DNA from: Dehalococcoidia bacterium
GTDB lineage: Bacteria > Chloroflexota > Dehalococcoidia > Bin125
NCBI GenBank assembly: GCA_965262235.1
Contig: OZ253504.1
Coordinates: forward strand, 2,582,354 to 2,646,353
Direction of reading: 5' to 3'
DNA length: 64,000 nt
Below the pieces are notes generated by a model. That model did not search any database. It worked only from the letters and a program-made list of their open reading frames with translations, and was not told where the DNA came from. Positions 10,121-43,518 of this stretch are shown here, piece after piece. Each line of letters opens with the position of its first letter. Positions within the stretch are counted from its first letter, which is position 1. The translations under genes were made by a program, and so were the position numbers.

Positions 10121-10188
10121 GATGATGCCCCTCGTGGCGGGAATAGTAGGGTACAAGAAATACGCGTTGTGATCGGCAATCCGGCTGC

Positions 10189-11068: not shown

Positions 11069-11686
11069 GTGTATTCTCGGCGAACGGTGTCTAACGACTT
11101 TTACCGATGCTCGTGGGCCGGCGAGAACAATGCGGAGGTCGCGTACCACGACGAGGAGTGGGGCGTGCCGCTGACCGATGACGTGGCGCTGTTTGAGTGC
11201 CTGACGCTTGAGGGGGCGCAGGCAGGGCTCTCGTGGAGCACGATTCTGGCGCGTCGCGAGGGCTATCGGTCGGCCTTCTGGGGCTGGGACCTGGAGCGGA
11301 TCGCGGGGGCGTCGGACGATGATCGGGAGACGCTGCGGGGCGATGTGAGGATCATCCGCAATCGGTTGAAGATCGCGGCGACCGTCGACAACGCCATCGC
11401 GACGCTGGCGCTGCGCGCCGGGGGACGCTCGCTGACGGAACTCGTCTGGGCCTACGCTGAACCCAGCGCAGGCCTCGGCGAGCTGGGCGACGTGCAGGCC
11501 CAGACCGTCGGCTCGCGGGCGCTGAGCCGCGAACTCAAGAGTCTTGGCTTTCGCTTCGTTGGACCCACCATCTGTTACGCCTTCATGCAGGCGAGTGGAA
11601 TCGTCAACGATCATCTGGCGCGGTGCTTCCGCCATGATCCGGTCGAAGCGTTGCGCCGGCCGTTGCTCGATCGCGCGATACCCTGA
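11069..11686 (+). CDS. tag: DNA-3-methyladenine glycosylase I
   Basis: YRCSWAGENNAEVAYHDEEWGVP...GLSWSTILARRE...FVGPTICYAFMQASGIVNDH collinear with Tag. Start uncertain (GTG at about 11069 or 11087); the Arg-rich N-terminal extension of the track ORF looks spurious. Confidence 0.8.
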   Translation: MYSRRTVSNDFYRCSWAGENNAEVAYHDEEWGVPLTDDVALFECLTLEGAQAGLSWSTILARREGYRSAFWGWDLERIAGASDDDRETLRGDVRIIRNRLKIAATVDNAIATLALRAGGRSLTELVWAYAEPSAGLGELGDVQAQTVGSRALSRELKSLGFRFVGPTICYAFMQASGIVNDHLARCFRHDPVEALRRPLLDRAIP

Positions 11687-11704
11687 GCGGACAAACGACG
11701 GGAA

Positions 11705-12508
11705 GTGGACATGACCTACGAACACCTCCGGGTTGAGATCGACGACCAGATCGCGACGATCACGCTGGACCGTCCGGAGAAGCTGAACGCGCTCTCGCGC
11801 GACCTGCACAACGAGATGGTCGCCGCGGCCAATGCCCTGCAGGCCGACGACGACGTGCGTGTGCTGATCGTCACGGGCGCCGGCCGGGGCTTCTGCTCGG
11901 GCGCGGACCTGACCGCGCGCCCATCGGCAAACGGCGTCTCCGAATCGCAGAATGCGCGGCTCGACGAGTTCGGCTGGGTCGGGGCGCAGGCGCTCGCCTT
12001 CGGCCAGATCGACAAGCCGACGATCGCGGCGGTGAACGGGGTCGCGGCGGGCGCGGGGATGAGCCTCGCGTTGGCCTGCGACATCCGCGTGGGCTCGGAG
12101 AAGGCGCGCTTCAAGACCGTGTTCCTCGAGCGCTCGCTCTCGCCCGACGCGGGCATGACGTGGTTCCTGCCGCGGATCGTGGGCTACGCCAAGGCGGCCG
12201 AGCTGGTGCTGACCAGCCGCTTCGTCGAGTCCGACGAGGCGCTGGAGATGGGTCTGCTCAACACCCGCGTGGCTCACGACGAGCTGATCTCGGCGGCGCG
12301 CGCGACTGCCGCGCAGATCGCATTCTGGCCGCCGCTCGCCGCCCGGTCGGCGAAGCGCGTCATGCAGCGCAACCTCAACGCCACGCTCGAAGAGGGCCTG
12401 CGAAACGAGATCACCGCGATCTCTCACGCCACCCGATCGGCGCACGATGTCGCCGAGGCGCAGGCCTCGTTCGTTGAGCGTCGTCAGCCGAACTTCACCG
12501 GCCAGTGA
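11705..12508 (+). CDS. enoyl-CoA hydratase/isomerase (crotonase family)
   Basis: ITLDRPEKLNALS...VLIVTGAGRGFCSGADL crotonase signature; 267 aa. Confidence 0.85.
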   Translation: MDMTYEHLRVEIDDQIATITLDRPEKLNALSRDLHNEMVAAANALQADDDVRVLIVTGAGRGFCSGADLTARPSANGVSESQNARLDEFGWVGAQALAFGQIDKPTIAAVNGVAAGAGMSLALACDIRVGSEKARFKTVFLERSLSPDAGMTWFLPRIVGYAKAAELVLTSRFVESDEALEMGLLNTRVAHDELISAARATAAQIAFWPPLAARSAKRVMQRNLNATLEEGLRNEITAISHATRSAHDVAEAQASFVERRQPNFTGQ

Positions 12509-13005
12509 GCGAGATTCGGATCCGCGAGGCGACGCCGCAGGACGCAGCCGAGATCCTGCGTTTCATTCGTGGGCTGGCCGAGTTCGAGGGTGAGCCGGCT
12601 GAGACGGTCAAAACGACCGAGGACGACATCCGCGCCCACGGCTTCGGGCCGGACCGCCAGTTTGAGACGCTGATCGCGGAGCGCGATGGTTCGCCGGTCG
12701 GCATGGCGCTGTTCTTTCCGCATTACTCGACCTGGGAGGGCCGGCCGGCCCTTTATCTGGAGGACCTGTTCGTCGACGCGGACGCGCGCGGGACGGGGGC
12801 TGGATATGCGCTGATGCAGCGGCTGGCGGAGATCGCCGATGAGCGCGACTGGACCCGGCTCGACCTCGCGGTGCTCGATTGGAACCCGGCGCGGCGCTTC
12901 TACGAGCGGATCGGCATGACCCACGAGTCGGAGTGGCTCACCTACCGCATGGGGCAGGACGCGATCGCCGCGCTGGCGCAGAATGAGGCGCCGCGGGAGG
13001 GCTGA
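12505..13005 (+). CDS. GNAT family N-acetyltransferase
   Basis: 166 aa with RGTGAGYALM GNAT motif; 4-bp ATGA overlap with the upstream gene. Confidence 0.75.
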   Translation: MSEIRIREATPQDAAEILRFIRGLAEFEGEPAETVKTTEDDIRAHGFGPDRQFETLIAERDGSPVGMALFFPHYSTWEGRPALYLEDLFVDADARGTGAGYALMQRLAEIADERDWTRLDLAVLDWNPARRFYERIGMTHESEWLTYRMGQDAIAALAQNEAPREG

Positions 13006-13021
13006 GTCAGGAGGGTTGAGC

Positions 13022-14236
13022 ATGGCCGAGATCACTGTCTACGGCGCGCCGTGGTGCCCGGACTGCCGGCGTGCCAAGCAGTTCCTTGCGGAGCACCGCG
13101 TCGAGTACGACTGGGTCGACATCGACCAGGACGCCGCCGCGCGGGCTCACGTTGAGCAGTTGCAGGGCGGCGGCCGGACGATCCCAACCGTCGTGCTGGG
13201 CGACGGTCGGATGCTGCTTGAGCCGGACAACGACGAGCTGGCGCGCGCGCTTGAGCTGCAGGTGAGGCCGAGCCGCTCGTTCTACGACCTCGCGATCGTC
13301 GGTGGTGGGCCGGCGGGTCTCGCGGCCGCGATCTACGCCGCGCGCGAGGGGATCGACACCGTCGTGGTCGAGCGCTCCGCGCTGGGCGGCCAGGCCGGCG
13401 TCACGAACCGGATCGATAACTACCCCGGATTTCCGGACGGGATCAGTGGGGACGAGCTGGCCAGGCGTTTCATCGAGCAGGCCGAGCGGTTCGGCGTCGA
13501 GCTGCTCTCGGCGGTGGCGACCAGCTCGATCTCGAAGCGCCCCAGCACAGGAGACGTGCAGCTGGGGCTGTCCAGCGGCGACGAGATCGGTGCGCACGCG
13601 GTGATCCTGGCGCCGGGATCGACCTATCGGCGCCTCGATGTCCCCGGAGAGACCGAGCTGATCGGCGCCTCCGTGCATTTCTGCTCAACCTGTGACGGTC
13701 CCTTCTACCGCGGGGCTGGAGAGCTGGCGGTGATCGGCGGCGGGAACTCCGCGCTCGAGGAGGGCTTGTATCTGACCCAGTTCGCCGATCGGGTGCGAAT
13801 CATCCACCGCGGCGACGCGCTGCGCGGATCGCAGGTGTTGCGCGACAAGGTTCGCGACCACGATCGGGTCGACCTCATGCTCGGCACGACGGTCGAGGCG
13901 ATGCGCGGCAACGGGTCGATCTCGGCGCTGACGCTGCGCGACCGAGCAAGCGGCGAGCTCTCGGAGTACGCACCAGATGGGGTGTTCGTGTTCATCGGCC
14001 TGCAGCCCAACACCGACTTCCTGCCGCCCGAGATTGCGGTCGACGAGCGCGGATTCGTCGTGACCAACGCGCAGTTTGAGACCTCGATCGCCGGCGTGTT
14101 CGCAGCGGGCGACAGTCGCGCCGGCTCGACCAAGCAGCTGGGCGCGGCCGTCGGGGAGGGGATCACCGCGCTGATGATGGCGCGGCAGTATCTGCAGGGC
14201 CACCAGCACATTCGCGCGGCCTCGCGGGGGGACTGA
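13022..14236 (+). CDS. trxB: glutaredoxin-like domain fused to thioredoxin-disulfide reductase
   Basis: N-terminal ITVYGAPWCPDCRRAKQFL (Grx/NrdH-like CPDC). Then GGGPAG FAD motif, CSTCDG redox-active disulfide and GGGNSA NADPH motif. Start trimmed to MAEITVYG. Confidence 0.8.
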   Translation: MAEITVYGAPWCPDCRRAKQFLAEHRVEYDWVDIDQDAAARAHVEQLQGGGRTIPTVVLGDGRMLLEPDNDELARALELQVRPSRSFYDLAIVGGGPAGLAAAIYAAREGIDTVVVERSALGGQAGVTNRIDNYPGFPDGISGDELARRFIEQAERFGVELLSAVATSSISKRPSTGDVQLGLSSGDEIGAHAVILAPGSTYRRLDVPGETELIGASVHFCSTCDGPFYRGAGELAVIGGGNSALEEGLYLTQFADRVRIIHRGDALRGSQVLRDKVRDHDRVDLMLGTTVEAMRGNGSISALTLRDRASGELSEYAPDGVFVFIGLQPNTDFLPPEIAVDERGFVVTNAQFETSIAGVFAAGDSRAGSTKQLGAAVGEGITALMMARQYLQGHQHIRAASRGD

Positions 14237-24730: not shown

Positions 24731-26695
24731 TCAGGTCTCGACGGCGACCACCTCAACGAGCAGCTGCCCCTCTTCGACCGTCGCCCCGGCTTCGCAGCGG
24801 ACCGAGGCGACGCGCCCACCGGCGAGCGCCGGCAGCAGGTGCTCCATCTTCATCGCCTCGAGCACGACCAGCGTCTGACCGGCCTCGACGAGATCGCCCT
24901 CGGCGACGAGCACCGCCGCGATCGTGCCCGGCATCGGCGCGTGGACCGCGTTGGAGCCGCCCGCGCGTCGCCGCGTCCCGGCGGAGCGGTCGCGTTCGGC
25001 GGTCGTGAAGGCCCATGAGCGCTCGCCGTGGCCGACGATCACACCCCATCGGGAGCGTTGTGTCGACCACGATTGGCGACTCCGGGCGATGCTGAGTTCG
25101 AGCCCATCCGCCGTGCGGTGAGCGTTGACGGTGGTGTTTGCGCCGCCGTCGACGCTCGCCTCCCACGTGGCGTTCGCACCCACGACGCGTTGCAGGGTGA
25201 CGGTGTGCTCGCTGCCATGCAGCGCCAGCCGCGCGGTGGTGTCGCCGGACGAGCGCCAGCCGCCGGTCGCGCCCTCGATGCGCGGCAGCGCGGCATCGAG
25301 CGCCGCCGCGATGAGCGCTGCGTTCGGCGTGTCGCGCGGCCCGAGCTCGGTGCGCTCCAGCCAGCCGACATCAACGCCGCCGGAGCGAAAATCGTCGGAG
25401 CTGAGGATGCCGACAAGCTGGTTGACGTTGGTGCGCAGGCCGGCGATCGCCGTGCCTTCGAGCGCCGCGACCGAGCGCGTCAGCGCTTCCTCGCGATCGG
25501 CGCCGTGCGCGATCACCTTGCCGAGCAGCGGGTCGTAGTGCGGCGTGACTGCGGAGCCCGCTGCGACGCCGAGATCGTTGCGCACGCCGGCCGCGCTTGA
25601 GGGCGCGAACCAGGTCAGCCGACCGATCGAGGGGAGGTAGTCGCGGGTTGGGTCCTCGGCGTAGACGCGCGACTCGATGGCGTGGCCCTGCCAGTGAATC
25701 TCGGTCTGCGAGATCGGCAGTTCCTCGCCCATCGCGATGCGTAGCTGCAGCTCGACCAGGTCGAGGCCCGTGACGGCCTCGGTGACAGGATGCTCGACCT
25801 GCAGGCGGGTGTTGACCTCGAGGAAGACGAACTCGTTGTCGGGCAGCAGCAGGAACTCAACCGTGCCCGCATTCTGGTAACCCGCCGCGCCGATGATCGC
25901 GAGGGCGGCCTCGCCGAGGCGGTGGCGCAGGTCGTCGTCGACGCCCGGCGCCGGCGCCTCTTCGATGACCTTCTGGCGGCGGCGCTGCACGGAGCAGTCG
26001 CGCTCGCCGAGATGGACGGCGTTGCCGAATCGGTCGGCGAGGACCTGCACCTCGACGTGGCGGCCGTCAACGATCGCCCGTTCGACGAGCAGGCGGCCGT
26101 CTCCGAAGGCCGACTCGGCTTCGCGGCGCGCGGATGCGATGGTCTCCACCAGGTCGTCGGGCGCTTCGGTCAGCAGCCGCATGCCGCGCCCGCCGCCGCC
26201 GGCGGCTGCCTTGAGCATCACGGGGTAGCCGAGCTGCCCGATCGCCGCGGCCAACGCTTCGTCGCCCTCGTCCTGCTCGATCCCGTCTGCAACGGGGACG
26301 CCCGCTGCGACCGCGAGCTGCCGGGCCTGCGCCTTGTCGCCGAGCTGCGACATCACGTCGGCCGGGGGGCCGATCCAGACCAGGCCGGCGTTGGCGCAGG
26401 CGCGCGCGAACTCGGCGTTCTCCGAGAGAAAGCCGTAGCCGGGGTGCACCGCATCGGCGCCCGAGCGCGCCGCGGCGTCGAGCAGCGCGGGGATGTTGAG
26501 ATAACTCTGAGCAGCGGGCGCCGCGCCGATCGGGATCGCGGCGTCTGCTGCGCGCACGTGCAGGGCCCCGCGGTCGGCGTCGGAGTAGACCGCGATCGAG
26601 TGCACGCCGAGTTCGCGGCAGGTGCGCGCGATCCGGACGGCGATCTCGCCGCGGTTGGCGATCAGCACGGCGCGGGGCAGCAGCGTGTTGGGCAT
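24731..26695 (-). CDS. acyl-CoA carboxylase alpha subunit (biotin carboxylase + biotin carboxyl carrier domains)
   Basis: N-terminal AVLIANRGEIAVRIARTCRELG biotin carboxylase signature; C-terminal VLEAMKMEH biotinylation motif; 654 aa. Confidence 0.85.
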   Translation of the reverse strand: MPNTLLPRAVLIANRGEIAVRIARTCRELGVHSIAVYSDADRGALHVRAADAAIPIGAAPAAQSYLNIPALLDAAARSGADAVHPGYGFLSENAEFARACANAGLVWIGPPADVMSQLGDKAQARQLAVAAGVPVADGIEQDEGDEALAAAIGQLGYPVMLKAAAGGGGRGMRLLTEAPDDLVETIASARREAESAFGDGRLLVERAIVDGRHVEVQVLADRFGNAVHLGERDCSVQRRRQKVIEEAPAPGVDDDLRHRLGEAALAIIGAAGYQNAGTVEFLLLPDNEFVFLEVNTRLQVEHPVTEAVTGLDLVELQLRIAMGEELPISQTEIHWQGHAIESRVYAEDPTRDYLPSIGRLTWFAPSSAAGVRNDLGVAAGSAVTPHYDPLLGKVIAHGADREEALTRSVAALEGTAIAGLRTNVNQLVGILSSDDFRSGGVDVGWLERTELGPRDTPNAALIAAALDAALPRIEGATGGWRSSGDTTARLALHGSEHTVTLQRVVGANATWEASVDGGANTTVNAHRTADGLELSIARSRQSWSTQRSRWGVIVGHGERSWAFTTAERDRSAGTRRRAGGSNAVHAPMPGTIAAVLVAEGDLVEAGQTLVVLEAMKMEHLLPALAGGRVASVRCEAGATVEEGQLLVEVVAVET

Positions 26696-26723
26696 GGCGC
26701 GAGTCTAGACTCGCGCCATGCCC
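26690..26723. promoter_or_regulatory. 34-bp perfect palindrome spanning both divergent start codons (candidate shared operator)
   Basis: gggcatggcgcgagtctagactcgcgccatgccc equals its own reverse complement. It contains the CAT (minus-strand ATG) of the carboxylase gene and the ATG of the PurO-like gene. Confidence 0.5.
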
Positions 26724-27464
26724 GATCGTCTTCTCGACCTCGCGCAGCGGAACTTCCGGCAACACCTCGCCGAGAATTCGTACCCGGGGCGGGGGATAGT
26801 GATCGGTCGGCTGGAGAGCGGCGACTGGATTCAGCTGTACTGGATCATGGGCCGCAGCGCGAACAGCAGGAACCGCAAGCTGGTGTCGAGCGAGGGCGAG
26901 CTTCGTACCGAGCCGCTCGACGCGGCGCTCGCGGAAGATCCGACCAACATCATCTACGAGGCGATGCTCGAGGCGCCGGACGTGTTCGTGGTCTCGAACG
27001 GTGACCAGACGCGCACGATCCTCAATGCGCTGGCGCACGGTGATCGGTTCGAGGACGCGCTGGCGACGCGCGAGCGCGAGGACGACGCGCCCAACTACAC
27101 ACCGCGCATCGCCGGGCTGATCGACCTACGCGGCCGGACGCACCAGCTGCCCGCACAGCTCAGCCTCGCGATCCTGCGCGCGAGCGACGCGGACGCCGGC
27201 GAGACCGACCGGACGATCTATCGGCCGGCATTGCCGCCGCCGGGGCTTGGCCAGGGGCTCACGACGTACGCCGGAGATGGCAGCCCCCTGCCGCCATTCC
27301 GCGGCGACCCGCTGTGGTTACCAATGGTCGGGAATGTTCAGGCGATCCTTGACACGTATTGGCAGGCGCTCGACGCGAACAATCGAATCGCGCTGGCGGC
27401 GAAGCAGATACCGACCGACGGGGGCGAGACCCAAATTCACCTCCGCGGCTCTGGAGCGGAGTAG
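26718..27464 (+). CDS. PurO-like (archaeal-type) IMP cyclohydrolase homolog
   Basis: YPGRGIVIGRLESGDWIQLYWIMGRSANSRNR and VFVVSNGDQTRTI...NYTPRIAG align by memory with the PurO pattern Y.GR...GR..G....RSFPNR / VVSNG..T.TI...NTPRIA. Confidence 0.5.
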   Translation: MPDRLLDLAQRNFRQHLAENSYPGRGIVIGRLESGDWIQLYWIMGRSANSRNRKLVSSEGELRTEPLDAALAEDPTNIIYEAMLEAPDVFVVSNGDQTRTILNALAHGDRFEDALATREREDDAPNYTPRIAGLIDLRGRTHQLPAQLSLAILRASDADAGETDRTIYRPALPPPGLGQGLTTYAGDGSPLPPFRGDPLWLPMVGNVQAILDTYWQALDANNRIALAAKQIPTDGGETQIHLRGSGAE

Positions 27465-27469: not shown

Positions 27470-29881
27470 ATGGCCGAGCATGAGGGCGCGCTGTCGGGGC
27501 TGACGGTGGTGCAGATCGGCTCAGGGCTCGACTCGGCCTACGCCGCGAAACTGCTCTCGGACCTGGGCGCGCGGCTGATCGTCGTCGAGCCACCCGATGG
27601 CGCGCCGCTGCGGACGCGTCCGCCGGTCGCCGACGGGGCGGGGCACGGGGCGATCTGGGCGCACCTCGCCTCGGGTGCGGAGTCGGTGGTTCCGGCCGAT
27701 CGCCAGGATGCCCGGCGAATTCTGCGCTCGTTGCTCGCTCATGCCGATGTGCTGCTGACGGATGGGACATCGCAGTCGCAGCAGGACCTGCCGACCGCGC
27801 CGCACGCGCGGCTGATCACTGCCGACCTATCGGCCTGGGGACGGTCGGGGCCGTACGCGGAGTGGCGTGAGAGCGACATCGCGACCTGGGCGATGGGCGG
27901 CTACATGTATTTCACGGGTGAGCCCGACCGCGAGCCGCTGATCATCCCGGGCAGCCAGAGCGCGATCCACGCGGGCGTGCATTGCGCGCTCGCTGTGCTT
28001 GCGGCGGTGCGCGAGCGTCGCCGCTCGGGGCACGGCCAGCAGATCGAGCTGTCGCAGCTCGAGGCGAATCTGTCAGCGCATGCGTGGCTGGTCTCGTCGT
28101 GGACCGCCAGCGGGCAGGCGCTGCTGCGCACGGGGCATGACTTCACCAGGACGCGCGACGGCTGGGCGCATTTCATGCAGATGGTGCCCAACCCGAACGT
28201 CTTCCTGCTGATCGACCAGCCGGAGCGGATGGACGAGGTGATCGCCAACGACATCGACACGTGGCGGCGGGCAGTGGCGGGCGTGTACCGCGAGGTGGAG
28301 GCCTGGGCGCAGGACGTTGATTCAGAGGAGGTGGCGACCCGCGCGCAGGAGCTGCGAGTGGCCTGCACGCCGATGCTCGATGCGGCCGGGCTGGATCGAA
28401 ATCCTCAGCTCGCGGCGCGGGGCTGGTGGGAGACGGATTTGGACGCCGAGCTCGGGGAGCTGCGGTTCCCGGGCCCGGCGTACCAGCTCTCGCGAACGCC
28501 CGCGCATCGAGGCGGCCCCGCGCCGCAGCTCGGCGAGCACAGCGCGGCGATTCGGGAGGAGTTCGTGGGGCGAGCCGCGCCGCCTGCGCCGAGCGCGATG
28601 CCGACCGATGCCGGGCCGCTGGAGGGGCTGACTGTCGTTGAGCTGACCTCGAACTGGGCCGGGCCGATCGCCGGACGCCACCTGGGCGACCTCGGCGCGA
28701 ATGTGATCAAGCTGGAGTGGGCGGCGCGTCCCGCGACGCGCGCGTTGTTCATGCCGGGGCCGACGCAGGACCCGCAGCGCTATCCCTATGACCGCGCGAT
28801 GTACTTCAATCTGCTCAATCGCAACAAGCGGGATGTGATCGTGGATCTGGCGACCGAGCAGGGGCGCGAGGTGTTCAGGGCGCTGATCGCGCGCGCCGAC
28901 GTGTTCATCGAGAACAACAGCGCGCGCGTGATGCCGAACCTTGGCCTGGGCTACGACGCGATGAGCGAGGTCAACCCGCGGCTGATTTACGTGTCGATGT
29001 CGGGCTTCGGCGCGACCGGCCCGTGGCGCGACTGGAGCGCGTACGGGTCGAACATCGAGGCGTCGTCGGGCCTGGCGTCGGTGACGGGCTACGACGAGTC
29101 GCAGGTCTATCGCACGCCGGTGTTCTACGCCGACCCGGTGGCGGGCAATCACGCGGCGGTGGCGATTCTGGCGGCGCTGGAGGAGCGTGAGCGCTCGGGG
29201 CTGGGGCAGTTCATCGATGTCGCGCTGAACGAAGCGGGCGCCTGCCACTTCCTCGAGATGCTGCTCGACTATCAGGCGACGGGCACGATCCGGCGGCCGA
29301 ACGGCAACCGCGACGAGCGATTCGCGCCGCAGGGCGCCTATCGCTGCGCGGGTGATGACTGCTGGATCGGCCTGGCGGTGCAGAGCGACGAGGAGTGGCC
29401 GCTGCTCGCGGAAGCGATCGGTCGCCAGGACCTGGCGGACGATCTGGAGCTGGCGACGCTCGCCGGTCGCCAGGGGCGACACGACGAGCTGGATGCGGCG
29501 ATCCACACCTGGACGCAGGGATACGAGCAATACGAGGCGGCGTGGATCCTGCAGCGGGCCGGCGTCTCGGCCGCGCCGGTGCTGGCCAACTGGCAGGTGC
29601 TGGCCGACCCGCATCTGTTTCATCGCGGGTTCTACGTGCCGATCGAGCATCCCGTGGTAGGGGTCTACCCGTTCCCCTCGTGGCCCTGGCGCTTTTCGCG
29701 GACGCCGGCGCGGGTGAGGCGCGCGGCGCCGCGGTTCGCCGAGCACAACCGGGAGGTTCTGTCGGAGATCGGCTTGTCGGAGCAGCAGATCCAGCAGCTC
29801 TACGACGAGGGGATCACATCCGATGCGCCCACGGCCCCGACGCTGGTCGTCCGTTCGGGCCTGTCGGCGCCCGACGACTAA
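27470..29881 (+). CDS. tandem two-domain family III CoA-transferase (CaiB/BaiF x2 fusion)
   Basis: LTVVQIGSGLDSAYAAKLLSDLGARLIVVEPP and LTVVELTSNWAGPIAGRHLGDLGANVIKLEW signatures. Start trimmed to MAEHEG (track ORF starts at 27359). Confidence 0.8.
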   Translation: MAEHEGALSGLTVVQIGSGLDSAYAAKLLSDLGARLIVVEPPDGAPLRTRPPVADGAGHGAIWAHLASGAESVVPADRQDARRILRSLLAHADVLLTDGTSQSQQDLPTAPHARLITADLSAWGRSGPYAEWRESDIATWAMGGYMYFTGEPDREPLIIPGSQSAIHAGVHCALAVLAAVRERRRSGHGQQIELSQLEANLSAHAWLVSSWTASGQALLRTGHDFTRTRDGWAHFMQMVPNPNVFLLIDQPERMDEVIANDIDTWRRAVAGVYREVEAWAQDVDSEEVATRAQELRVACTPMLDAAGLDRNPQLAARGWWETDLDAELGELRFPGPAYQLSRTPAHRGGPAPQLGEHSAAIREEFVGRAAPPAPSAMPTDAGPLEGLTVVELTSNWAGPIAGRHLGDLGANVIKLEWAARPATRALFMPGPTQDPQRYPYDRAMYFNLLNRNKRDVIVDLATEQGREVFRALIARADVFIENNSARVMPNLGLGYDAMSEVNPRLIYVSMSGFGATGPWRDWSAYGSNIEASSGLASVTGYDESQVYRTPVFYADPVAGNHAAVAILAALEERERSGLGQFIDVALNEAGACHFLEMLLDYQATGTIRRPNGNRDERFAPQGAYRCAGDDCWIGLAVQSDEEWPLLAEAIGRQDLADDLELATLAGRQGRHDELDAAIHTWTQGYEQYEAAWILQRAGVSAAPVLANWQVLADPHLFHRGFYVPIEHPVVGVYPFPSWPWRFSRTPARVRRAAPRFAEHNREVLSEIGLSEQQIQQLYDEGITSDAPTAPTLVVRSGLSAPDD

Positions 29882-30541: not shown

Positions 30542-31297
30542 TCAAACGAGCGGCCAGGGGACGGCGCGACGGTTTTGGGGGGGATTGGGCAGGTGACGCT
30601 CGGAGAGGGCGCGAATCGCACGCTGCCGCAGGATCTCGAGCTCCTGCTCGGTGAGCAGTTCGGCGAGCGCGCTGTGGGCCGGACCGGCCGCTTCCAGGTC
30701 GCCGGCCAGCTGCTCGACATCGCTGAGCAGCTGCTCCGAGATTTCGTCGCCCGCGTAATCCCAGATCACCGTGCGGAGCTTCTCGTCGACGTGGAAGGAG
30801 AGCCCGTTGTCGATGCCCCAAAGGTGGCCGGCCTCGCCTTCGAGGATGTGGCCGCCCTTGCGGTCGGCGTTGTTGGCCAGCCAATCGAAGAGCGCGAACT
30901 GACGCATCCGCTCGGCGTGCTGCTCGCGCAGCTCGAAGAAGGTGCAGCGGTAGTCGGTCGGGATGTAGGCCTGTAGCGAGCCAACGCCCAGCTCCAACCC
31001 TTCCGCGCGCTTCACGGTTGGCGGAATGATCGACCAGGCCAGCGCCCGCGAGAGCCGGTAGGCCGCGACCTCGCGGCGGTAGAGCTCGGGCGGGAAGTCC
31101 CAGAGCGGGTTCTCGCCGCGCGCCGGCTTGTAGATCGCGTAGCCCGACTCGGGCGCGGCCTCGTGCTGCAGCTCGACGATGAACACGCGGTTCGAGGCGT
31201 AGGGAATTCGCGCCCCGTCGACCACTTCGCCGTGCAGCAGCCAGTCTTCGATCTCGTCGCCGGCAGGGTCCCACGAACGGTCGGGGAAGCGGTCCAT
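30542..31297 (-). CDS. PI3/PI4-kinase-like protein (SCO1664-family-like)
   Basis: IYKPARGENPLWDFP and LANNADRKGGHIL resemble lipid/protein kinase-like catalytic loops; 251 aa. Assignment from memory of family patterns. Confidence 0.45.
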   Translation of the reverse strand: MDRFPDRSWDPAGDEIEDWLLHGEVVDGARIPYASNRVFIVELQHEAAPESGYAIYKPARGENPLWDFPPELYRREVAAYRLSRALAWSIIPPTVKRAEGLELGVGSLQAYIPTDYRCTFFELREQHAERMRQFALFDWLANNADRKGGHILEGEAGHLWGIDNGLSFHVDEKLRTVIWDYAGDEISEQLLSDVEQLAGDLEAAGPAHSALAELLTEQELEILRQRAIRALSERHLPNPPQNRRAVPWPLV

Positions 31298-31303
31298 GCG
31301 CGG

Positions 31304-32089
31304 TCAGCCGCTGTTGCTGATCTGGATGGCGTCGCCGACGGAGATTCGGCCGCCGCTGACGACGTTGGCTTCGACGCCGAAGTCGAGGTGGCCGTAGTTG
31401 TCTTTCAGCACACCCATCAGCTCAGTGTCGCGGCCGGCGCCGGTCGGCGAGGCGTTGATCGCGTTGCAGCGGACGAGCCGCGCGGTTACATCGATCTCAA
31501 CCTCCGGACCGACGCGCAGGCGGCGGCCGACCCAGTCGAACTCGGACCACGCCTCGATGCCTTCCACGGCGAAGTTCAACCGGAAGCGCCGGAAGTCGAC
31601 ATCGACCGTGGCGACATCGGAGAGGTCACTGAGGCTGTCGAGCCCGGCGAGACTGATCTGGGTCGGACCGCGGTCGGTATAGCGGCTCGAGCCGTCGCCG
31701 AGCAGCACCAGCGGCTCGCGCTCGGGTCGACCGCTCAGCGGATTCTCGTCGAACGTGCGCACCACATCGGCCAACCGGTCGGCGAGGGCGGTGCGCTGCC
31801 GTTGGTCGGCTACGTCGGCCGATTGTTCGGCGCCTTCGAACGCGAGCGAGAGGCGGCCGGTGGCGGAATCGAAGCTCGCGGCGACACGTGGCAGATCGGG
31901 GGTGTTGAGCAGCGTGACCGACTGGCGCTTGGAAACCCAGCCGATCGGACCGACGCGCTCGGCGTTGCCGAACGCGAAGATGAAGGCTCGGTCACCGAGA
32001 ACCGATTGGCCCGGTTCGAGTTGCAGCGTCTCAGCCGGCTGGGCGGTGAGGCCCTTGACGGGGTAGACGTAGCAGGCGTTGATCTTCAT
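31304..32089 (-). CDS. MOSC domain protein
   Basis: FRRFRLNFAVEGIEAWSEFDWVGRRLRVG...RLVRCNAINASPTGAGRD matches the MOSC beta-barrel and conserved Cys region. Confidence 0.75.
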   Translation of the reverse strand: MKINACYVYPVKGLTAQPAETLQLEPGQSVLGDRAFIFAFGNAERVGPIGWVSKRQSVTLLNTPDLPRVAASFDSATGRLSLAFEGAEQSADVADQRQRTALADRLADVVRTFDENPLSGRPEREPLVLLGDGSSRYTDRGPTQISLAGLDSLSDLSDVATVDVDFRRFRLNFAVEGIEAWSEFDWVGRRLRVGPEVEIDVTARLVRCNAINASPTGAGRDTELMGVLKDNYGHLDFGVEANVVSGGRISVGDAIQISNSG

Positions 32090-32126
32090 GGCTGCTGGCC
32101 AATCACTCTGTGGGTCATGTCGGCGG

Positions 32127-33173
32127 TCATCTCGGTGGTCCGAGCATCTCGAAAAACTCTGATTCGGAGATCACATCGATCTTGTGGCCCTCGGCGATCA
32201 GCTCGTCGGCGCGGAGTCGATCACGCTGGGCCGGCCCTTGCGCACCGTGTTCGATCGTATGGTCCGCGACGATCAGGAGGGTCGTCTCCTCGCTGAGCGC
32301 GGAACTGACCGTCAGCCCGGCGCGCCGGGCGACGATCTGCAGTGCGGCCGGCGCGACCAGCGACGAGCAGCTGACGACGACTGTCTCATCGTAGCGGCGG
32401 CGCTTCAGTCGCCGCAGCCGTCGCTTACGGGTCTTGCGTGGCTTGGCCGGGGTGGGTGGCGTGGCTGGGACGTCGGCTTTCGCGCGCTGCGGGCGCGCGG
32501 TGGGCTTGGTCGGCTCAGCGGGCTTGGTGGCCTGGGTGCGCTTGGCGGGCTTGGTGGATTTGGCGGGCTTCGATCGTGGCGCGGGGGTGCTGCCGGGCGC
32601 TGCTGGTGCGGGCGCACGAGTGGGCGCACGAGCGGGCGCACGCTCGAGCTCGATGATCGGTTCGATCGTCCGCGCGCCGGTTTTGCGCATCGCGGCGAGG
32701 ATCACGTGACCGGCGGCCTTTGCGTCGGCGAGCGCGTCGTGGTGGGCGAAGCGGTAGCCGATCATTCGGCAGACCTCTGCGAGGCCGTAGCCGTCGCGGG
32801 AGCGATGCGGCCAGGTTCGGCGCGTGACCAGCGCGGAATCGAGCCAGCGCCAGCTCGGCGGCGGCAGGTTGGCTCGCGCCGCCGCCTGCGAGATCGCCGA
32901 GCGGTCGAACTGCGTGTGATGCACGACGACGCTGTCGGCGACGAACTCGTTGAGGCGCGGGAGCGCCTCTGCGAAGCGCGGCGCCCTCGCCACCTTGTCG
33001 CGGTCGATCCCGTGGATGCCGACGTTGACCGCGGCGAAGTAGTCCTGCGGATCGACCAGGGTGTAGAACTCGTCGACGATCGCGCCGCGCTCGAAGCGCG
33101 CCGCGCCGATCGAGCAGATCGACGCGTAGTCGGAGTTGGCTGTCTCGACATCGAGCGCGACGAACGAGCTCAT
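32127..33173 (-). CDS. DEDDh 3'-5' exonuclease with Pro/Lys-rich linker and C-terminal BRCT domain
   Basis: N-terminal FVALDVETAN...HHDALADA exonuclease motifs. Low-complexity PAPA/KPAK linker, then BRCT-like segment ETVVVSCSSLVAPAALQIVARRAGLTV...LLIVADH. Confidence 0.75.
   Translation of the reverse strand: MSSFVALDVETANSDYASICSIGAARFERGAIVDEFYTLVDPQDYFAAVNVGIHGIDRDKVARAPRFAEALPRLNEFVADSVVVHHTQFDRSAISQAAARANLPPPSWRWLDSALVTRRTWPHRSRDGYGLAEVCRMIGYRFAHHDALADAKAAGHVILAAMRKTGARTIEPIIELERAPARAPTRAPAPAAPGSTPAPRSKPAKSTKPAKRTQATKPAEPTKPTARPQRAKADVPATPPTPAKPRKTRKRRLRRLKRRRYDETVVVSCSSLVAPAALQIVARRAGLTVSSALSEETTLLIVADHTIEHGAQGPAQRDRLRADELIAEGHKIDVISESEFFEMLGPPR
32434..32650. repeat. degenerate short tandem repeats inside the exonuclease linker coding region
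   Basis: Repeated gcgggcttggtgg and gggcgcacgag units encoding the PKPA-rich linker. Confidence 0.7.
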
Positions 33174-33175
33174 GG

Positions 33176-35728
33176 TTAGCCGCCAGCGGCAAAGGCCTGA
33201 CAGGCGCGGGCGCGGCGCAACTCGTCGAGCGCCTCGCGCAGGTTGCGGGCGAGCAGCAGATCGCCGTCGCCGAGCTGTTCAAGCAGGTTAGCCGAGCGGT
33301 TGACGACCTCGTCGATCGCGACGTGGCCGGGGTAGAGCGCGCCGAACCAGCGCGTCGCGTACTCCTTGTCGCGTTCGGCGAACACGCCACGCACCTCCTC
33401 GAAGAAGCGGCCGACGTAGGGCTGTAGCAGCGCATCCTGAGGCTTCCACCAGAAGCCGTGCATTGCGGCGCCGAGGATGTGCAGCGAGGCCTCGCGGTCC
33501 TCGCGGAAGCGTGACCAGGCCGCTGTCTTGATCGCGGCGTCGGCGCGCGAGGCGCGCACGGTCTCAGCGGCGCGCTGGCCGCGGTCGGAGCCGTCGCGCT
33601 CCAGTTCTGGAGCGAGCCGTTCGAAGCCTCCCTGCATGTCGTAGGCGACCGACTTGGTCACCAAACTCCAGCGCATGTCCTGGTCGAGCTCGAAGCCTTC
33701 GATGTCGACGCCGTCGTCGGCGAGCGCGAGCAACCGCTGGATTCGCTCGGGCTCCTGCGCCGAGCCGATCAGGATGCGCGCCCAGACGATCCGGAAGTCC
33801 GCGTCAGCGGTCGAGAAGAGCCCATCCCAGGCGAGGTCGAAGAGTTGGGCCGCGCGATCGAGCCGCTGCGATTCGGGCAGGTAGCGACCGATCGCGTAGA
33901 GCGCGTGGTTGGCGATGGTCTGCATGATCTCGAGCGTGCCCTCGCTGCCGAGCTTGTCGGCCGCGAGCGCGACGAAGTCACCGGCGGAGAACTGCTGGTC
34001 GCGCACCATGTCCCACAGGGTGTGCCAGAAGAGCAGGCGCTCGAACGGCGCGTCGAAGCGATCGATCTGTTCCTGCACGAACGACAGCGAGCGGTCGTCG
34101 AGCGCGATCTTGGCAAACGCGTGGTCGCCGTGGTTGGGGAAGACGGCGGCCGGCGCGCTGATCCCGACGAGGCCCTCGACGACGGTTTCGGGACCGTCGA
34201 GGTCGACCGGCACGGCGTCGCGCAGCACCGGGCCGTCGTCGCCGGCGTCGTAGATCGCCACCTCGGTCCGGTGCGGACGGAGGTCGGTGTGCTCCGCCGG
34301 TGCGGTCTGGACCATGGTGAAGGAGTTCACTTCGCCGTCGACGACGCTGTAGTTGGCGGCCAGGGTGTTGACGCCGGCGCGTTCGAGCCACAGTTCCGAC
34401 CAGCGGCCCAGCTCGCGGCCGGAGCCTCGCTCGAGCGCGGCGAGGAAGTCGGCCAGGGTCGTGTTGCCCCAGGCGTGGGTCTGGAAGTAGTCCCGCATGC
34501 CGTCGCGGAAGCCCTCGGCGCCGAGGAAGGCGACGAGCTGCTTGAGCACCGCAGCGCCCTTGCCGTAGGTGATCCCGTCGAAGTTCAGGAACGTGGCGTC
34601 GGTGTCGGGCACGTCGCCGGCGATCGGGTGGGTGGTGGGGAGCTGGTCCTGCTCGTAGGCCCAGGCCTTCATCCGCGCGTGGAAGGCCGACCAGGCGGAC
34701 GACTCGAAGCGCGTGGCCTGCTCCATCGAGAGGTAGGCCATGTAGGTCGCAAACGACTCGTTGAGCCAGAGGTCATTCCACCACTGCATCGTGACGAGGT
34801 CGCCGAACCACATGTGGGCCATCTCGTGCAGCACGACCTCGGCGCGGTTGAGCCGCTGGATGTCGGTCGGCGGGTCGCGGAAGATCATCCGCTCCGAGTA
34901 GGTGATACAGCCGACGTTCTCCATCGCGCCCATGTTGAACTCGGGCACGAAGACCTGGTCGTACTTGTCGAATGGGTAGCGGAAGTCGAAGAAGTCGGAG
35001 TAGAAGGTCAGGCCCTGGCGGGTGACCTCGAAGAACTCGTCGGCATCGAAGTACTCGGCCAGCGAGGAGCGGCAGCAGACGCCGAGCGGCGTGTCTTCCC
35101 AGCGGTCGTCGAAGCGCACGTAGGGACCCGCCGCGAGCGCGAGCAGGTAGGTGCTGAAGCGCGGGGTGGTCACGAAGCGACGCCGCGTGCGTTCGCCGGC
35201 ATCGACTGACTCCGTCTCGGCGACCGGGTAGTTGGCGATCACCTCCCAGGCGCTGGGAGCGGTGACGGTCAGGTCGTAGGTCCCCTTGAGGTCGGGCTGG
35301 TCGAAGCAGGGCAGCAGACGGTGGGCGTCGTAGGGCTCGAAGTGGGTGTAGAGGTATTCGGCGCCGTCCTGTGGATCGATAAACTGATGCAGTCCTGCGC
35401 CGATGTGGTCGTAGTCGTTGGTGTAGTGGACGCGCACCTCGTTGGCAGCGGCCAGATCGGCGCCGTCGAGATAGAGACGGTTGCGCTCATGCCGCGCGGC
35501 CCGCTGGACGCCGTTGACGGTCAGCGAGTGGATCTCGCGACCCGTGAAGTCGAGGAATGCGCCCGCGGCGGGAGCGGCGTGGCTGAAGCGGATCGCGGCT
35601 TCGGCGTCGTAGGTCTCGGAGCCGGCGGTCAGGGAGAGGGTGAGGTCGTAGGCGACGTCCGAGATCGCCGCGGCCCGGTCTTCCGCCTCGTTCTGCGTCA
35701 AGACATTGGGGCCCGCTAGTTCGGCCAT
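33176..35728 (-). CDS. pepN: aminopeptidase N (M1 family)
   Basis: GAMEN motif and HEMAHMWFGDLVT...E zinc-binding motif; 850 aa. Confidence 0.9.
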   Translation of the reverse strand: MAELAGPNVLTQNEAEDRAAAISDVAYDLTLSLTAGSETYDAEAAIRFSHAAPAAGAFLDFTGREIHSLTVNGVQRAARHERNRLYLDGADLAAANEVRVHYTNDYDHIGAGLHQFIDPQDGAEYLYTHFEPYDAHRLLPCFDQPDLKGTYDLTVTAPSAWEVIANYPVAETESVDAGERTRRRFVTTPRFSTYLLALAAGPYVRFDDRWEDTPLGVCCRSSLAEYFDADEFFEVTRQGLTFYSDFFDFRYPFDKYDQVFVPEFNMGAMENVGCITYSERMIFRDPPTDIQRLNRAEVVLHEMAHMWFGDLVTMQWWNDLWLNESFATYMAYLSMEQATRFESSAWSAFHARMKAWAYEQDQLPTTHPIAGDVPDTDATFLNFDGITYGKGAAVLKQLVAFLGAEGFRDGMRDYFQTHAWGNTTLADFLAALERGSGRELGRWSELWLERAGVNTLAANYSVVDGEVNSFTMVQTAPAEHTDLRPHRTEVAIYDAGDDGPVLRDAVPVDLDGPETVVEGLVGISAPAAVFPNHGDHAFAKIALDDRSLSFVQEQIDRFDAPFERLLFWHTLWDMVRDQQFSAGDFVALAADKLGSEGTLEIMQTIANHALYAIGRYLPESQRLDRAAQLFDLAWDGLFSTADADFRIVWARILIGSAQEPERIQRLLALADDGVDIEGFELDQDMRWSLVTKSVAYDMQGGFERLAPELERDGSDRGQRAAETVRASRADAAIKTAAWSRFREDREASLHILGAAMHGFWWKPQDALLQPYVGRFFEEVRGVFAERDKEYATRWFGALYPGHVAIDEVVNRSANLLEQLGDGDLLLARNLREALDELRRARACQAFAAGG

Positions 35729-41926: not shown

Positions 41927-42811
41927 GTGCGCATCGCGCGAATCGGCGGCCGTCGGGTCGCGTATGAAACGTATGGCGACCCGCGCGGCCAACCCGTCCT
42001 GATCATTCACGGCGCCTGGGGCGGGCCGTCGTCCAGCCTGTGGAACGGGCCGCGCCTGCGTTGGTCAGCGCCCACCGATGGTCTGCGCCTGATCTGGTAC
42101 GACCGCCGGTGCGCCGGTCTCTCGCAGTACGACACGCAGCCGTTCGCACTCGAGGACCTGGCATACGATGCCGTCGAGGTTCTCGACTACCTGCAGATTG
42201 AACGGGCCGCGGTCATCGCGACTTCCGCAGGTGGTCCGATCGGCATGAGATTGGCGCTCGGTCATCCGGACCGGGTCTCAGCCCTGGTGCTGCTCAACAC
42301 GGGCGCGGCGTTGATGTCGTTGAATCCAACGGGAGTCAATCTCGACGACCCGTTCGTCGCTGATCGGCTCGAGACGGTCGCCAGGCGCATCGGGCTGTTG
42401 AAACTCATGGAATCCAAGGGCGTCGAGGCGGCGATTCAGCAATCCGAAGAGGAGTGGCGAACGCCGCCGGAGCCGGAGAGCGCGGATCCAGAGCTGGCTG
42501 CGTTTCGAGCGAATCGTCTGCGTGCCCTGAGCCGGTTGTCGCAAAGCGAGCTGGTGCGGCTGGGGCGAGGAGCCTTGCTGAACATGCAGGCGCAGCGGGG
42601 CATTGACCTTGCTGATCGACTGCACGGGATCAACTGTCCGACTCTGATCGTCCACGGAGATGCCGACACGACCGTGCCCATCGACTTCGGACGCGCCACG
42701 GCTGAGCGGATCTCAGGAGCCGAACTCGCCATTCTCCATGCCGCTGGCCACGGTCTGATCGCTCATGCCCAAGCGCAGTCCATGCTGGCAAAGTGGTTGT
42801 TGGGAGTCTAG
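41927..42811 (+). CDS. alpha/beta hydrolase
   Basis: VLIIHGAWGG, ATSAGG nucleophile elbow, C-terminal HGDADTTVP...AGH. Confidence 0.75.
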   Translation: MRIARIGGRRVAYETYGDPRGQPVLIIHGAWGGPSSSLWNGPRLRWSAPTDGLRLIWYDRRCAGLSQYDTQPFALEDLAYDAVEVLDYLQIERAAVIATSAGGPIGMRLALGHPDRVSALVLLNTGAALMSLNPTGVNLDDPFVADRLETVARRIGLLKLMESKGVEAAIQQSEEEWRTPPEPESADPELAAFRANRLRALSRLSQSELVRLGRGALLNMQAQRGIDLADRLHGINCPTLIVHGDADTTVPIDFGRATAERISGAELAILHAAGHGLIAHAQAQSMLAKWLLGV

Positions 42812-42820
42812 AATCGGGAC

Positions 42821-43481: not shown

Positions 43482-43518
43482 CTAAGTTCCAAGAACATCG
43501 CGCCCCAATGCGCCTCGA

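What the first reader, a model, noticed from the sequence alone, without database searches (positions are those of the whole stretch)
26718..27464. Archaeal-type PurO-like IMP cyclohydrolase homolog in a bacterial locus, divergent from an acyl-CoA carboxylase gene
The 248-aa product aligns by eye with the PurO family (YPGRGIVIGR...GRSANSRNR; VFVVSNGDQTRTI...NYTPRIAG). PurO is the archaeal replacement for the PurH cyclohydrolase domain and is sporadic in bacteria. Here it sits between a biotin carboxylase gene and a CoA-transferase gene rather than with purine genes, suggesting a different role.
Basis: partly seen in the sequence, partly recalled or inferred. Interest (0 to 1): 0.5.

Follow-up and report, generated by a model that had tools for sequence, protein, structure and literature searches.

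The report
Bacterial PurO purine enzyme, displaced gene
This gene very probably encodes the bacterial form of PurO, the enzyme for the last step of purine synthesis; a genome rearrangement separated it from its partner gene purV, so its position beside acyl-CoA genes does not indicate a new role.

Summary
ORF 26718-27464 (+) encodes a 248-aa protein that matches Pfam PF07826 (121 bits, cutoff 28). Its confident model (pLDDT 96) superposes on archaeal PurO (2NTK, E 2e-13, TM 0.76-0.79).

The interpretation of a different role is not supported. The window comes from a Dehalococcoidia (Chloroflexota) genome. In 13 related species genomes the orthologue directly follows a stand-alone AICAR formyltransferase gene (purV), often with a TGATG overlap, at the same syntenic position.

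The biotin-carboxylase-linked genes form one derived clade. Their 24 conserved PurO-motif positions are unchanged and dN/dS is 0.15-0.2. Genomes with the window's gene order still carry an AICARFT-only purV, about 31 kb upstream in a genome whose PurO is 94% identical.

The CoA-transferase is convergent in 16 species, absent in two and separated by a toxin pair in one. Distant family members are fused to PurN or PurS.

Bacterial PurO paired with purV was described in 2019. This is an ordinary new member.

Not proven: absence of PurH or PurJ, and enzyme activity.

Side observations: a 34-nt perfect palindrome spans both divergent start codons, and an unexplained Fno-PurO gene pair occurs in other phyla.

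The parts
26718..27464 (+). purO, bacterial type: predicted IMP cyclohydrolase (FAICAR -> IMP), 248 aa. It has an N-terminal helix (residues 2-18) ahead of the Ntn-like core.
   Evidence: ORF. PF07826 at 121 bits. Family profile against MthPurO 2NTK, E 2.7e-15. AlphaFold model pLDDT 96.2, pTM 0.93. Foldseek 2NTK/2NTM/1KUU E ~1e-13, TM 0.76-0.79 over the whole target. Motif residues Y22 R25 R46 S47 R51 Y80 N94 G95 T98 E121 D123 T128 R130 are invariant or near-invariant. dN/dS 0.15-0.20.
26690..26723 (.). 34-nt perfect palindrome GGGCATGGCGCGAGTCTAGACTCGCGCCATGCCC. It covers the 22-bp spacer plus the first two codons of both divergent genes (both proteins begin Met-Pro). It contains TAGACT at 26706-26711 (+) and, mirrored, at 26702-26707 (-), each 6 nt from its ATG. 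Putative back-to-back promoters for two leaderless mRNAs, or a symmetric operator. This is inference only.
   Evidence: Longest perfect palindrome in the 64-kb window; the next is 20 nt. The core GAGT(C/T)TAGACTC is conserved in L001 and L009-L014/L030. L011 carries a symmetric change on both arms. The BC-proximal half, TAGACTC 5-6 nt before the BC ATG, is also kept in the lineages with a ~96-bp spacer. The sigma-70 consensus scan found nothing.
24731..26695 (-). Context only: biotin carboxylase + BT-like + BCCP (acyl-CoA carboxylase alpha-type subunit), divergent from purO. It is the last gene of the block that separates purV from purO in this lineage.
   Evidence: Pfam Biotin_carb_N / CPSase_L_D2 / Biotin_carb_C / BT_MCC_alpha / Biotin_lipoyl. 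No NCBIfam equivalog cutoff reached. Adjacent to purO only in one Dehalococcoidia clade.
27470..29881 (+). Context only: tandem-domain family III CoA-transferase, 803 aa, starting 5 nt after the purO stop. It is probably co-transcribed with purO here.
   Evidence: PF02515 in two stretches, 532 bits. Gene called as 803 aa with a 5-nt gap in L001. Junction sequence GGAGCGGAGTAGGCGGCATG. On the opposite strand in 16 species genomes, absent next to purO in L073 and L075, separated by a PIN toxin pair in L006/L019.
30542..35728 (-). Context only: the conserved downstream anchor block. It comprises a 251-aa protein with a weak PI3/PI4-kinase-like hit, a MOSC protein, an RNase_T-type exonuclease and an M1 aminopeptidase. 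It marks the ancestral position of purO.
   Evidence: Pfam. The p251/M1 core of the block follows purO both in purV-purO loci (L004, L015-L018, L020, L021, L024, L057, L066, L070) and in BC-linked loci; MOSC and RNase_T are detected in only some of the purV-purO loci.

Best explanation
The gene encodes the bacterial-type PurO, an IMP cyclohydrolase with an Ntn-hydrolase-like fold and no N-terminal nucleophile. It closes the purine ring of FAICAR to give IMP, the last step of de novo purine synthesis. It works with a stand-alone AICAR formyltransferase (PurV, a PurH that lacks the cyclohydrolase domain) encoded elsewhere on the chromosome.

The ancestral arrangement in this part of the Dehalococcoidia was epimerase-purV-purO, followed by the convergent 251-aa / MOSC / RNase_T / M1-peptidase block. 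In the window's lineage a block of about 30 kb that ends with DPPIV-M24-BC now lies between purV and purO. A tandem CoA-transferase gene was inserted downstream of purO. purO therefore has its own start region, the palindromic 22-bp spacer shared with the BC gene.

Shown: family membership, fold, motif conservation, purifying selection, synteny, and purV on the same chromosome in close relatives. Inferred: the catalytic activity, the absence of any other cyclohydrolase (PurH or PurJ), and the promoter reading of the palindrome.
For: - Family and fold: PF07826 at 121 bits. Profile against solved PurO, E 2.7e-15. Model pLDDT 96. Foldseek best hits are the three MthPurO entries (E ~1e-13, prob 1.00, TM 0.76-0.79, whole target aligned); the next hits are proteasome and other Ntn folds at E > 1e-3.
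- Active site: positions aligned to MthPurO Y2, R5, R25, S26, R30, Y59, N73, G74, T77, E104, D106, T110 and R112 are invariant or >=90% conserved in 79 diverse family members. They are identical in all genomic-context groups. The bacterial signatures noted by Cruz et al. (Ser26 conserved; Tyr56 replaced) fit S47 and T76/N77 (PMC6486802).
- Operon: purV-purO with a TGATG overlap or a gap of at most 21 nt in 12 of 13 species genomes.
- Fusions: PurN-PurO (P0266, P0234) and PurS-PurO (P0204) in members 41-44% identical to the query.
- Partner in the same genome: AICARFT-only purV (388-390 aa, PF01808 only) on the same chromosome as window-type purO. Confirmed by record name in two genomes (+24, 17+25). 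Confirmed by coordinates in OZ244584.1, whose PurO is 94% identical: purV at 3,103,198 and purO at 3,135,282, same strand. Confirmed by contig-length match in four more members of the >=90% PurO cluster.
- Evolution: the BC-linked genes form one derived clade without long branches. dN/dS is 0.15-0.20.
- Precedent: bacterial purO paired with purV and anticorrelated with purH was described in 22 genomes (PMC6486802).
Against: - No enzyme assay or complementation exists for any bacterial PurO in the literature I could search.
- The protein fails the curated archaeal PurO equivalog models (46 and 38 bits against 150 and 158). Its sequence similarity to solved PurO covers only the N-terminal ~60%.
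- I could not test whether these genomes also encode a full PurH or a stand-alone PurJ.
- purV was not shown in the window's own genome. It is not in the 64 kb, and the purV locus of the closest genome does not overlap the window.
- I recalled the identity of the three proposed catalytic side chains (Arg, Glu, Tyr) in MthPurO numbering from memory, because Kang et al. 2007 was not available.
- In 13 loci of other phyla the 53-66% identical gene is coupled to an F420:NADPH oxidoreductase instead of purV. This is unexplained.
Confidence: 0.85

Rival explanations
1. The PurO-like protein has been recruited to acyl-CoA metabolism. It would work with the neighbouring biotin carboxylase and tandem CoA-transferase, for example as an Ntn-type amidohydrolase or cyclase on a CoA-linked substrate.
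For: BC-purO adjacency is kept across a clade whose PurO identity spans 56-94%. In the window's subgroup the CoA-transferase starts 5 nt after the purO stop, or overlaps it by 8 nt in L002. The two divergent start codons share a conserved palindrome.
Against: The CoA-transferase is on the opposite strand in 16 species genomes, missing in L073 and L075, and separated by a PIN toxin pair in L006. L060 has purV-purO-CoA-transferase, so the CoA-transferase insertion did not depend on the loss of purV. All 24 PurO motif positions are identical to those of purV-linked orthologues, branches are not lengthened, and dN/dS is 0.15-0.2. The position equivalent to the Ntn nucleophile is Tyr22, behind a 20-residue helix, so Ntn-type hydrolysis is not expected. 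The same genomes keep an AICARFT-only purV that needs a cyclohydrolase partner.
Confidence: 0.05
2. The bacterial PF07826 branch as a whole is not an IMP cyclohydrolase. It would catalyse a different ring closure or opening on a nucleotide-like substrate, and the link to purV would reflect a related but distinct step.
For: No bacterial member has been characterised. It falls far below the archaeal equivalog cutoffs. It has ~45 extra residues and a divergent C-terminal half. In 13 Myxococcota, 'Deltaproteobacteria' and Spirochaetales loci the gene directly follows npdG/Fno, the F420:NADPH oxidoreductase.
Against: Tight purV-purO operons. PurN and PurS fusions. The positions aligned to the MthPurO ligand-binding and catalytic residues are conserved. 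The whole-chain structural match to PurO is ten orders of magnitude better than to any other fold member. Anticorrelation with purH was reported for bacterial purO (PMC6486802). An AICARFT without its cyclohydrolase domain produces FAICAR, which needs exactly this activity.
Confidence: 0.07
3. The gene is a redundant or decaying remnant, and the cyclohydrolase step is done by a PurH or PurJ elsewhere.
For: I could not exclude the presence of PurH or PurJ. Three bacterial genomes with both purH and purO are reported (PMC6486802, Table 1).
Against: The reading frame is intact, the motifs are invariant and dN/dS is 0.15-0.2 across orthologues at 79-95% identity. The gene is retained in every genome of the clade sampled. 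The AICARFT gene in the same genomes lacks the IMPCH domain.
Confidence: 0.03

Closest known systems
Bacterial PurO paired with PurV (Cruz et al. 2019, Genome Biol Evol 11:1235, PMC6486802)
   Same: A PF07826 protein of the bacterial branch. Partner is a stand-alone AICARFT (purV). purV-purO operons occur in relatives. Active-site positions are conserved, including the bacterial signature Ser (Mth Ser26 = S47) and the loss of Tyr56.
   Different: That survey found 22 bacterial genes in Firmicutes, Actinobacteria, Spirochaetes, Fibrobacteres and Epsilonproteobacteria and does not mention Chloroflexi. Here the gene is in Dehalococcoidia and has been separated from purV. I had no sequences from that paper, so I could not test whether this protein falls inside their bacterial clade.
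Archaeal PurO (MTH1020 / MJ0626; PDB 1KUU, 2NTK-2NTM; TIGR01922)
   Same: Same four-layer Ntn-like fold (TM 0.76-0.79). Same N-terminal motif set (YxGR, RS..R, Y, SNG..T, YE.D...TPRI). Same predicted reaction.
   Different: About 21% identity. Scores 38-46 bits against equivalog cutoffs of 150-158. 248 aa against ~200 aa, with an extra N-terminal helix (2-18) and a C-terminal half that does not align by sequence. Archaeal PurO commonly pairs with PurP or PurV-N.
PurH IMPCH domain / stand-alone PurJ (MGS-like fold)
   Same: Same predicted reaction (FAICAR -> IMP) and the same pathway position, after AICARFT.
   Different: Unrelated fold and active site: an analogue, not a homologue (PMC6797443).
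Ntn hydrolases (proteasome beta subunits, penicillin V acylase, acid ceramidase)
   Same: Same core fold. They are the next structural hits after PurO.
   Different: E-values ten orders of magnitude weaker. There is no N-terminal Cys/Ser/Thr nucleophile and no sign of autoprocessing; the equivalent position is Tyr22, behind a helix.

Membership tests
Pfam PF07826 IMP_cyclohyd (PurO superfamily) | Score above the family gathering threshold over most of the model | tested here: met
   121 bits against 28.1; profile positions 1-188 of 192.
Archaeal PurO equivalog (TIGR01922 purO_arch / NF003167) | Score above the curated equivalog cutoff | tested here: not met
   37.6 against 158.35 and 46 against 150; only residues 22-136 align. 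The protein is therefore not filed as an archaeal-type orthologue.
PurO (functional class, any domain) | Four-layer alpha-beta-beta-alpha Ntn-like fold that matches solved PurO better than other Ntn proteins | tested here: met
   Model pLDDT 96.2. Foldseek 2NTK/2NTM/1KUU E 2-5e-13, TM 0.76-0.79, 234-246 aligned columns; the next hit is at E 1.8e-3.
PurO (functional class, any domain) | No N-terminal nucleophile and no autoprocessing | tested here: met
   Tyr22 occupies the position of Mth Tyr2 and is preceded by a confidently modelled helix (2-18). Met1 is >=90% conserved in the family. Processing itself cannot be tested in silico.
PurO (functional class, any domain) | Conserved ligand-binding and catalytic side chains (Arg, Glu and Tyr proposed by Kang et al. 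2007, as summarised in PMC6797443) | tested here: met
   R51 (Mth R30), E121 (Mth E104) and Y80/Y22 (Mth Y59/Y2) are invariant or >=90% conserved, as are R25, R46, S47, N94, G95, T98, D123, T128 and R130. Caveat: I recalled which residue numbers are catalytic from memory, because the primary paper was not available.
Bacterial purV/purO system (Cruz et al. 2019) | Stand-alone AICARFT (purV) in the same genome, often adjacent | tested here: met
   Adjacent in 13 related species genomes. Same chromosome but distant in genomes with the window's gene order, including members of the >=90% PurO cluster. Not shown for the window's own genome.
Bacterial purV/purO system (Cruz et al. 2019) | Absence of full-length PurH and of PurJ (anticorrelation) | not testable with these tools
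   Only +/-10 kb of each genome could be fetched, and the capped searches could not be restricted to one genome.
PurO (functional class, any domain) | FAICAR -> IMP activity | not testable with these tools
   Needs an enzyme assay or delta-purH complementation.

The most novel reading that the evidence does not exclude
The bacterial PurO-like family may have a second role or an unrecognised coupling. In at least 13 Myxococcota, 'Deltaproteobacteria' and Spirochaetales genomes a 53-66% identical gene is translationally coupled to Fno/NpdG (F420:NADPH oxidoreductase), next to HGPRT and class II ribonucleotide reductase genes and without purV within 10 kb. In the window's clade the gene shares a conserved palindromic start region with a biotin carboxylase and is co-transcribed with a tandem CoA-transferase. 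If these links are functional, the enzyme may act on something other than, or in addition to, FAICAR.
Probability: 0.07. Interest if true: 0.55.

Novelty: new member of a known kind. Interest (0 to 1): 0.15.

Why it matters
It matters little for new biology, but it is useful for annotation. A gene outside its expected neighbourhood should not be read as neofunctionalised until synteny in sister lineages has been checked. The results also show that the bacterial PurO/PurV solution for the last two purine steps is much more widespread than the 22 genomes reported in 2019: at least 576 species genomes, and typical of Dehalococcoidia and other Chloroflexota. No bacterial member has been tested biochemically in the literature I could search. 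This well-behaved 248-aa protein (pLDDT 96) would be a reasonable candidate for that test.

Tried and rejected
- Exact-sequence look-up of the window protein in public assemblies found nothing on record.
- tblastn of purV against the window gave no hit better than E 0.38.
- I tried to read Kang et al. 2007 for the 14 active-site residues, but the paper is not held. The Cruz et al. supplement is not held either. Residue mapping therefore rests on the HMM alignment to 2NTK/1KUU plus the four residues named in Cruz et al.
- The search for related loci with the diverse alignment A1 failed because no stretch was conserved enough. I repeated it with the closer alignment A2.
- The first set of purV clusters did not include the window's species. 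The third homology search, with a window-type purV as query, solved this.
- The purV locus of OZ244584.1 does not overlap the window. The window's first ~16 kb is not colinear with that genome, so I could not place purV relative to the window.
- The sigma-70 consensus scan of 26400-27000 found no promoter or terminator. The promoter reading of the palindrome is therefore only an inference from geometry and conservation.
- The idea that the ~210-aa genes upstream of purO in Anaerolineae and Chloroflexia are PurN is rejected. They are a deoxynucleoside kinase, NUDIX, HAD, GNAT and other proteins, with no common partner.

Full report
**1. Observation**

The ORF at 26718-27464 (+) is real: ATG start, 248 aa. 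It matches Pfam PF07826 (IMP cyclohydrolase-like) at E 6.3e-35 and 121 bits, against a gathering score of 28.1, over nearly the whole model.

The neighbours are as described:
- A biotin carboxylase + BT-like + BCCP gene lies on the minus strand (24731-26695). Its start codon is 22 bp from the PurO start.
- A family III CoA-transferase with two complete domains follows on the plus strand.
- That gene's real start is most likely the ATG at 27470, 5 nt after the PurO stop. The gene is called this way, as 803 aa, in a 95%-identical contig.

There is no tRNA gene in the window. There is no AICARFT (purH/purV) homologue either.

**2. What the protein is**

By sequence it is only distantly related to the solved archaeal PurO. 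A single-sequence search gives E 8e-4, and only residues 20-135 align. It falls far below the curated archaeal PurO equivalog cutoffs, at 46 and 38 bits against 150 and 158.

A profile of 79 diverse family members raises the match to MthPurO to E 2.7e-15. An AlphaFold model built on that alignment is very confident (mean pLDDT 96.2, pTM 0.93). Foldseek places the three MthPurO entries first (E 2-5e-13, probability 1.00, target-normalised TM 0.76-0.79, 234-246 aligned columns for a ~205-residue target). Proteasome subunits and other Ntn-fold proteins follow only at E > 1e-3. The whole chain is therefore a PurO fold, not just the N-terminal half.

The family-invariant or >=90% conserved positions are Y22, G24, R25, G30, R46, S47, S50, R51, R53, Y80, N94, G95, T98, E121, D123, T128, R130 and I131. 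Many of them align to MthPurO Y2, G4, R5, G10, R25, S26, R30, Y59, N73, G74, T77, E104, D106, T110, R112 and I113.

The literature summarises the mechanism as resting on an Arg, a Glu and a Tyr side chain (PMC6797443). All three residue types are conserved at aligned positions. The exact catalytic numbering is from my memory, because the primary structure paper was not available.

Cruz et al. 2019 note that Ser26 is fully conserved in bacterial PurOs and that Tyr56 is replaced. Here the aligned residues are S47 and T76/N77, which fits the bacterial type.

The position of the Ntn nucleophile is Tyr22, behind a modelled helix (2-18). Ntn-type hydrolysis is therefore not expected.

**3. Organism and distribution**

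The closest species-representative genomes are Dehalococcoidia MAG chromosomes, OZ250140.1 and OZ244584.1, at 94% protein identity. About 94% nucleotide identity extends over at least 20 kb.

The family is large:
- 6,984 hits among the 8,000 candidates scored in the 90%-clustered database.
- 2,065 clusters at 50% identity with E <= 1e-3.
- At least 576 species genomes matched by only two peptide patterns.

These span Chloroflexota (Dehalococcoidia, Anaerolineae, Chloroflexia, and Ktedonobacteria including the cultured Thermosporothrix hazakensis), Myxococcota, Desulfobacterota-type MAGs, Spirochaetales, Phycisphaerae, Victivallales and Pelagicoccus. Source databases already name some of them 'IMP cyclohydrolase'.

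**4. Genomic context decides the interpretation**

Among the 80 fetched species loci:

| Arrangement | Count |
|---|---|
| purV immediately upstream of purO (one of these, L060, also has the CoA-transferase downstream) | 13 |
| BC(-) / purO(+) / CoA-transferase(+), the window's order | 8 |
| BC(-) / purO(+) / CoA-transferase(-), convergent, so not co-transcribed | 16 |
| BC but no adjacent CoA-transferase (L073, L075) | 2 |
| None of these | 41 |

In L006/L019 a PIN toxin pair on the opposite strand sits between purO and the CoA-transferase.

In the purV-linked loci, the purV stop and the purO start overlap (TGATG) or lie at most 21 nt apart in 12 of 13 cases.

The purV-linked loci of the Dehalococcoidia carry the same downstream genes as the window: always the 251-aa protein and the M1 peptidase, and in some also MOSC or RNase_T. 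They also carry the same gene upstream of purV, an epimerase/DUF1731.

**5. Evolution**

A neighbour-joining tree puts all BC-linked genes in one clade. That clade is sister to one purV-linked clade and nested among others. Its branches are not lengthened.

All 24 motif positions I checked are the same across all context groups, with two single-sequence exceptions among the 26 BC-linked genes. dN/dS against orthologues at 79-95% identity is 0.15-0.20.

**6. The partner gene is still in these genomes**

A search with the L004 purV, and a second with a window-type purV, returned only AICARFT-only proteins (388-392 aa, PF01808 alone) among the close hits. I linked them to PurO carriers in three ways:
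- **By record name:** ctg28378_264x_c (= OZ251457.1) holds purO at ~1.168 Mb and purV at ~1.599 Mb. ctg717517c (= OY820591.1) holds them about 30 kb apart.
- **By coordinates:** in OZ244584.1 (PurO 94% identical to the window's), purV is at 3,103,198-3,104,364 and purO at 3,135,282-3,136,025, on the same strand.
- **By contig-length match:** four more members of the >=90% PurO cluster, with contigs of 3,198,307, 3,238,225, 793,144 and 68,449 bp. L014, L030, L032 and L038 also match.

In all the purV loci read, purV keeps its epimerase/DUF1731 neighbour.

The simplest history is this. A block of about 30 kb, running from a leuA-like gene to DPPIV-M24-BC, came to lie between purV and purO. Independently, the CoA-transferase was inserted between purO and the 251-aa gene; L060 shows that insertion with purV still attached.

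**7. Independent functional links**

Two family members 41-44% identical to the query are fused to a PurN-type formyltransferase domain. One is fused to PurS.

Cruz et al. 2019 (PMC6486802) described 22 bacterial purO genes. These mostly co-occur with purV, are anticorrelated with purH, and 15 of them lie in purine gene context. Chloroflexi are not mentioned in that paper.

**8. Conclusion on mechanism**

The gene is best explained as the bacterial-type IMP cyclohydrolase. It completes purine synthesis after a stand-alone AICARFT (confidence 0.85).

Its position next to BC and the CoA-transferase is a lineage-specific rearrangement, not evidence for a new role. The recruitment hypothesis gets about 0.05.

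The wider doubt, that the bacterial branch as a whole does something else, gets about 0.07. It stays open because no bacterial member has been assayed in the literature I could search, and because of the Fno association described below.

**9. What remains unproven**

- The absence of PurH or PurJ in these genomes.
- purV in the window's own genome. The window's first ~16 kb is not colinear with OZ244584.1, and the purV locus does not overlap the window.
- The enzyme activity itself.

**10. Side observations**

(a) The 22-bp spacer plus the first two codons of both divergent genes form a 34-nt perfect palindrome (26690-26723). It is the longest in the window; the next is 20 nt.
- A TAGACT hexamer lies 6 nt upstream of each ATG.
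- The core is conserved across the clade, and L011 shows a symmetric change on both arms.
- The geometry suggests two back-to-back leaderless promoters with overlapping -10-like boxes, or a symmetric operator. The consensus sigma-70 scan finds nothing, so this is inference only.

(b) In 13 loci of other phyla the PurO-like gene directly follows Fno/NpdG, in some cases with overlap.
- The NpdG assignment is solid: TIGR01915 at 226 bits against a cutoff of 150, plus matches to PDB 5N2I and 1JAX.
- A class II ribonucleotide reductase lies downstream in 8 of them.
- An HGPRT-like gene is nearby in the Myxococcota locus L003/L026.

(c) The CoA-transferase is a single-chain tandem of two family III domains.

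**11. Verdict**

The family assignment is right, although the protein belongs to the bacterial branch and not the archaeal one. The 'different role' reading is not supported. This is a new member of a known kind, and interest is low (0.15).

Noticed in passing
window 26690-26723: A 34-nt perfect palindrome (GGGCATGGCGCGAGTCTAGACTCGCGCCATGCCC) spans the start codons and second codons of the divergent BC and purO genes. It is the longest perfect palindrome in the window. TAGACT lies 6 nt upstream of each ATG, and the core is conserved in relatives, with a symmetric change on both arms in L011. It may be overlapping leaderless promoters or a symmetric operator.
   Followed up: partly
L022 159-1573; L026 (=L003) 8371-14066; also L023, L033, L036, L044, L049, L051, L053, L055, L061: In Myxococcota, 'Deltaproteobacteria' and Spirochaetales MAGs, a PurO-like gene 53-66% identical to the window's directly follows a bona fide npdG/Fno (F420:NADPH oxidoreductase). 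In L022 the two overlap by 4 nt. A class II ribonucleotide reductase is often downstream and an HGPRT-like gene nearby, with no purV within 10 kb. The reason for the Fno-PurO pairing is unexplained.
   Followed up: partly
window 27470-29881 (+): The CoA-transferase is a single polypeptide of ~803 aa with two complete family III CoA-transferase domains. Family III enzymes are normally interlocked homodimers, so this would be a covalently fused pseudo-dimer. It is conserved at 66-95% identity across the Dehalococcoidia clade, on either strand. It reaches no NCBIfam equivalog cutoff.
   Followed up: no
window 24731-26695 (-): The biotin carboxylase/BCCP subunit (with a weak MCC-alpha BT domain hit) has no carboxyltransferase partner among its immediate neighbours. 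Downstream on its strand are an M24 Xaa-Pro aminopeptidase and a DPP-IV/S9 peptidase.
   Followed up: no
window 1-8000, 42000-46000 and 52000-54000: G+C content is lower (0.61-0.65) than the ~0.69 of the rest of the window. I could not check whether the window left of ~16700 is colinear with the closest genomes: the fetched loci L009 and L010 end there, and the purV locus of OZ244584.1 does not match the window. This may be inserted or variable DNA.
   Followed up: no
L006 10754-11382; L001 6128-6433: PIN-domain toxin genes (with a small upstream partner in L006) are inserted at the purO/CoA-transferase boundary or just after the CoA-transferase in related genomes. This marks the spot as a recurrent insertion point.
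   Followed up: no
P0266, P0234, P0204 (family members from the representative library): Natural fusions of the PurO-like domain with PurN-type formyltransferase (478 and 430 aa) and with PurS (333 aa). P0226 carries an N-terminal lectin-like stretch (weak hit).
   Followed up: partly
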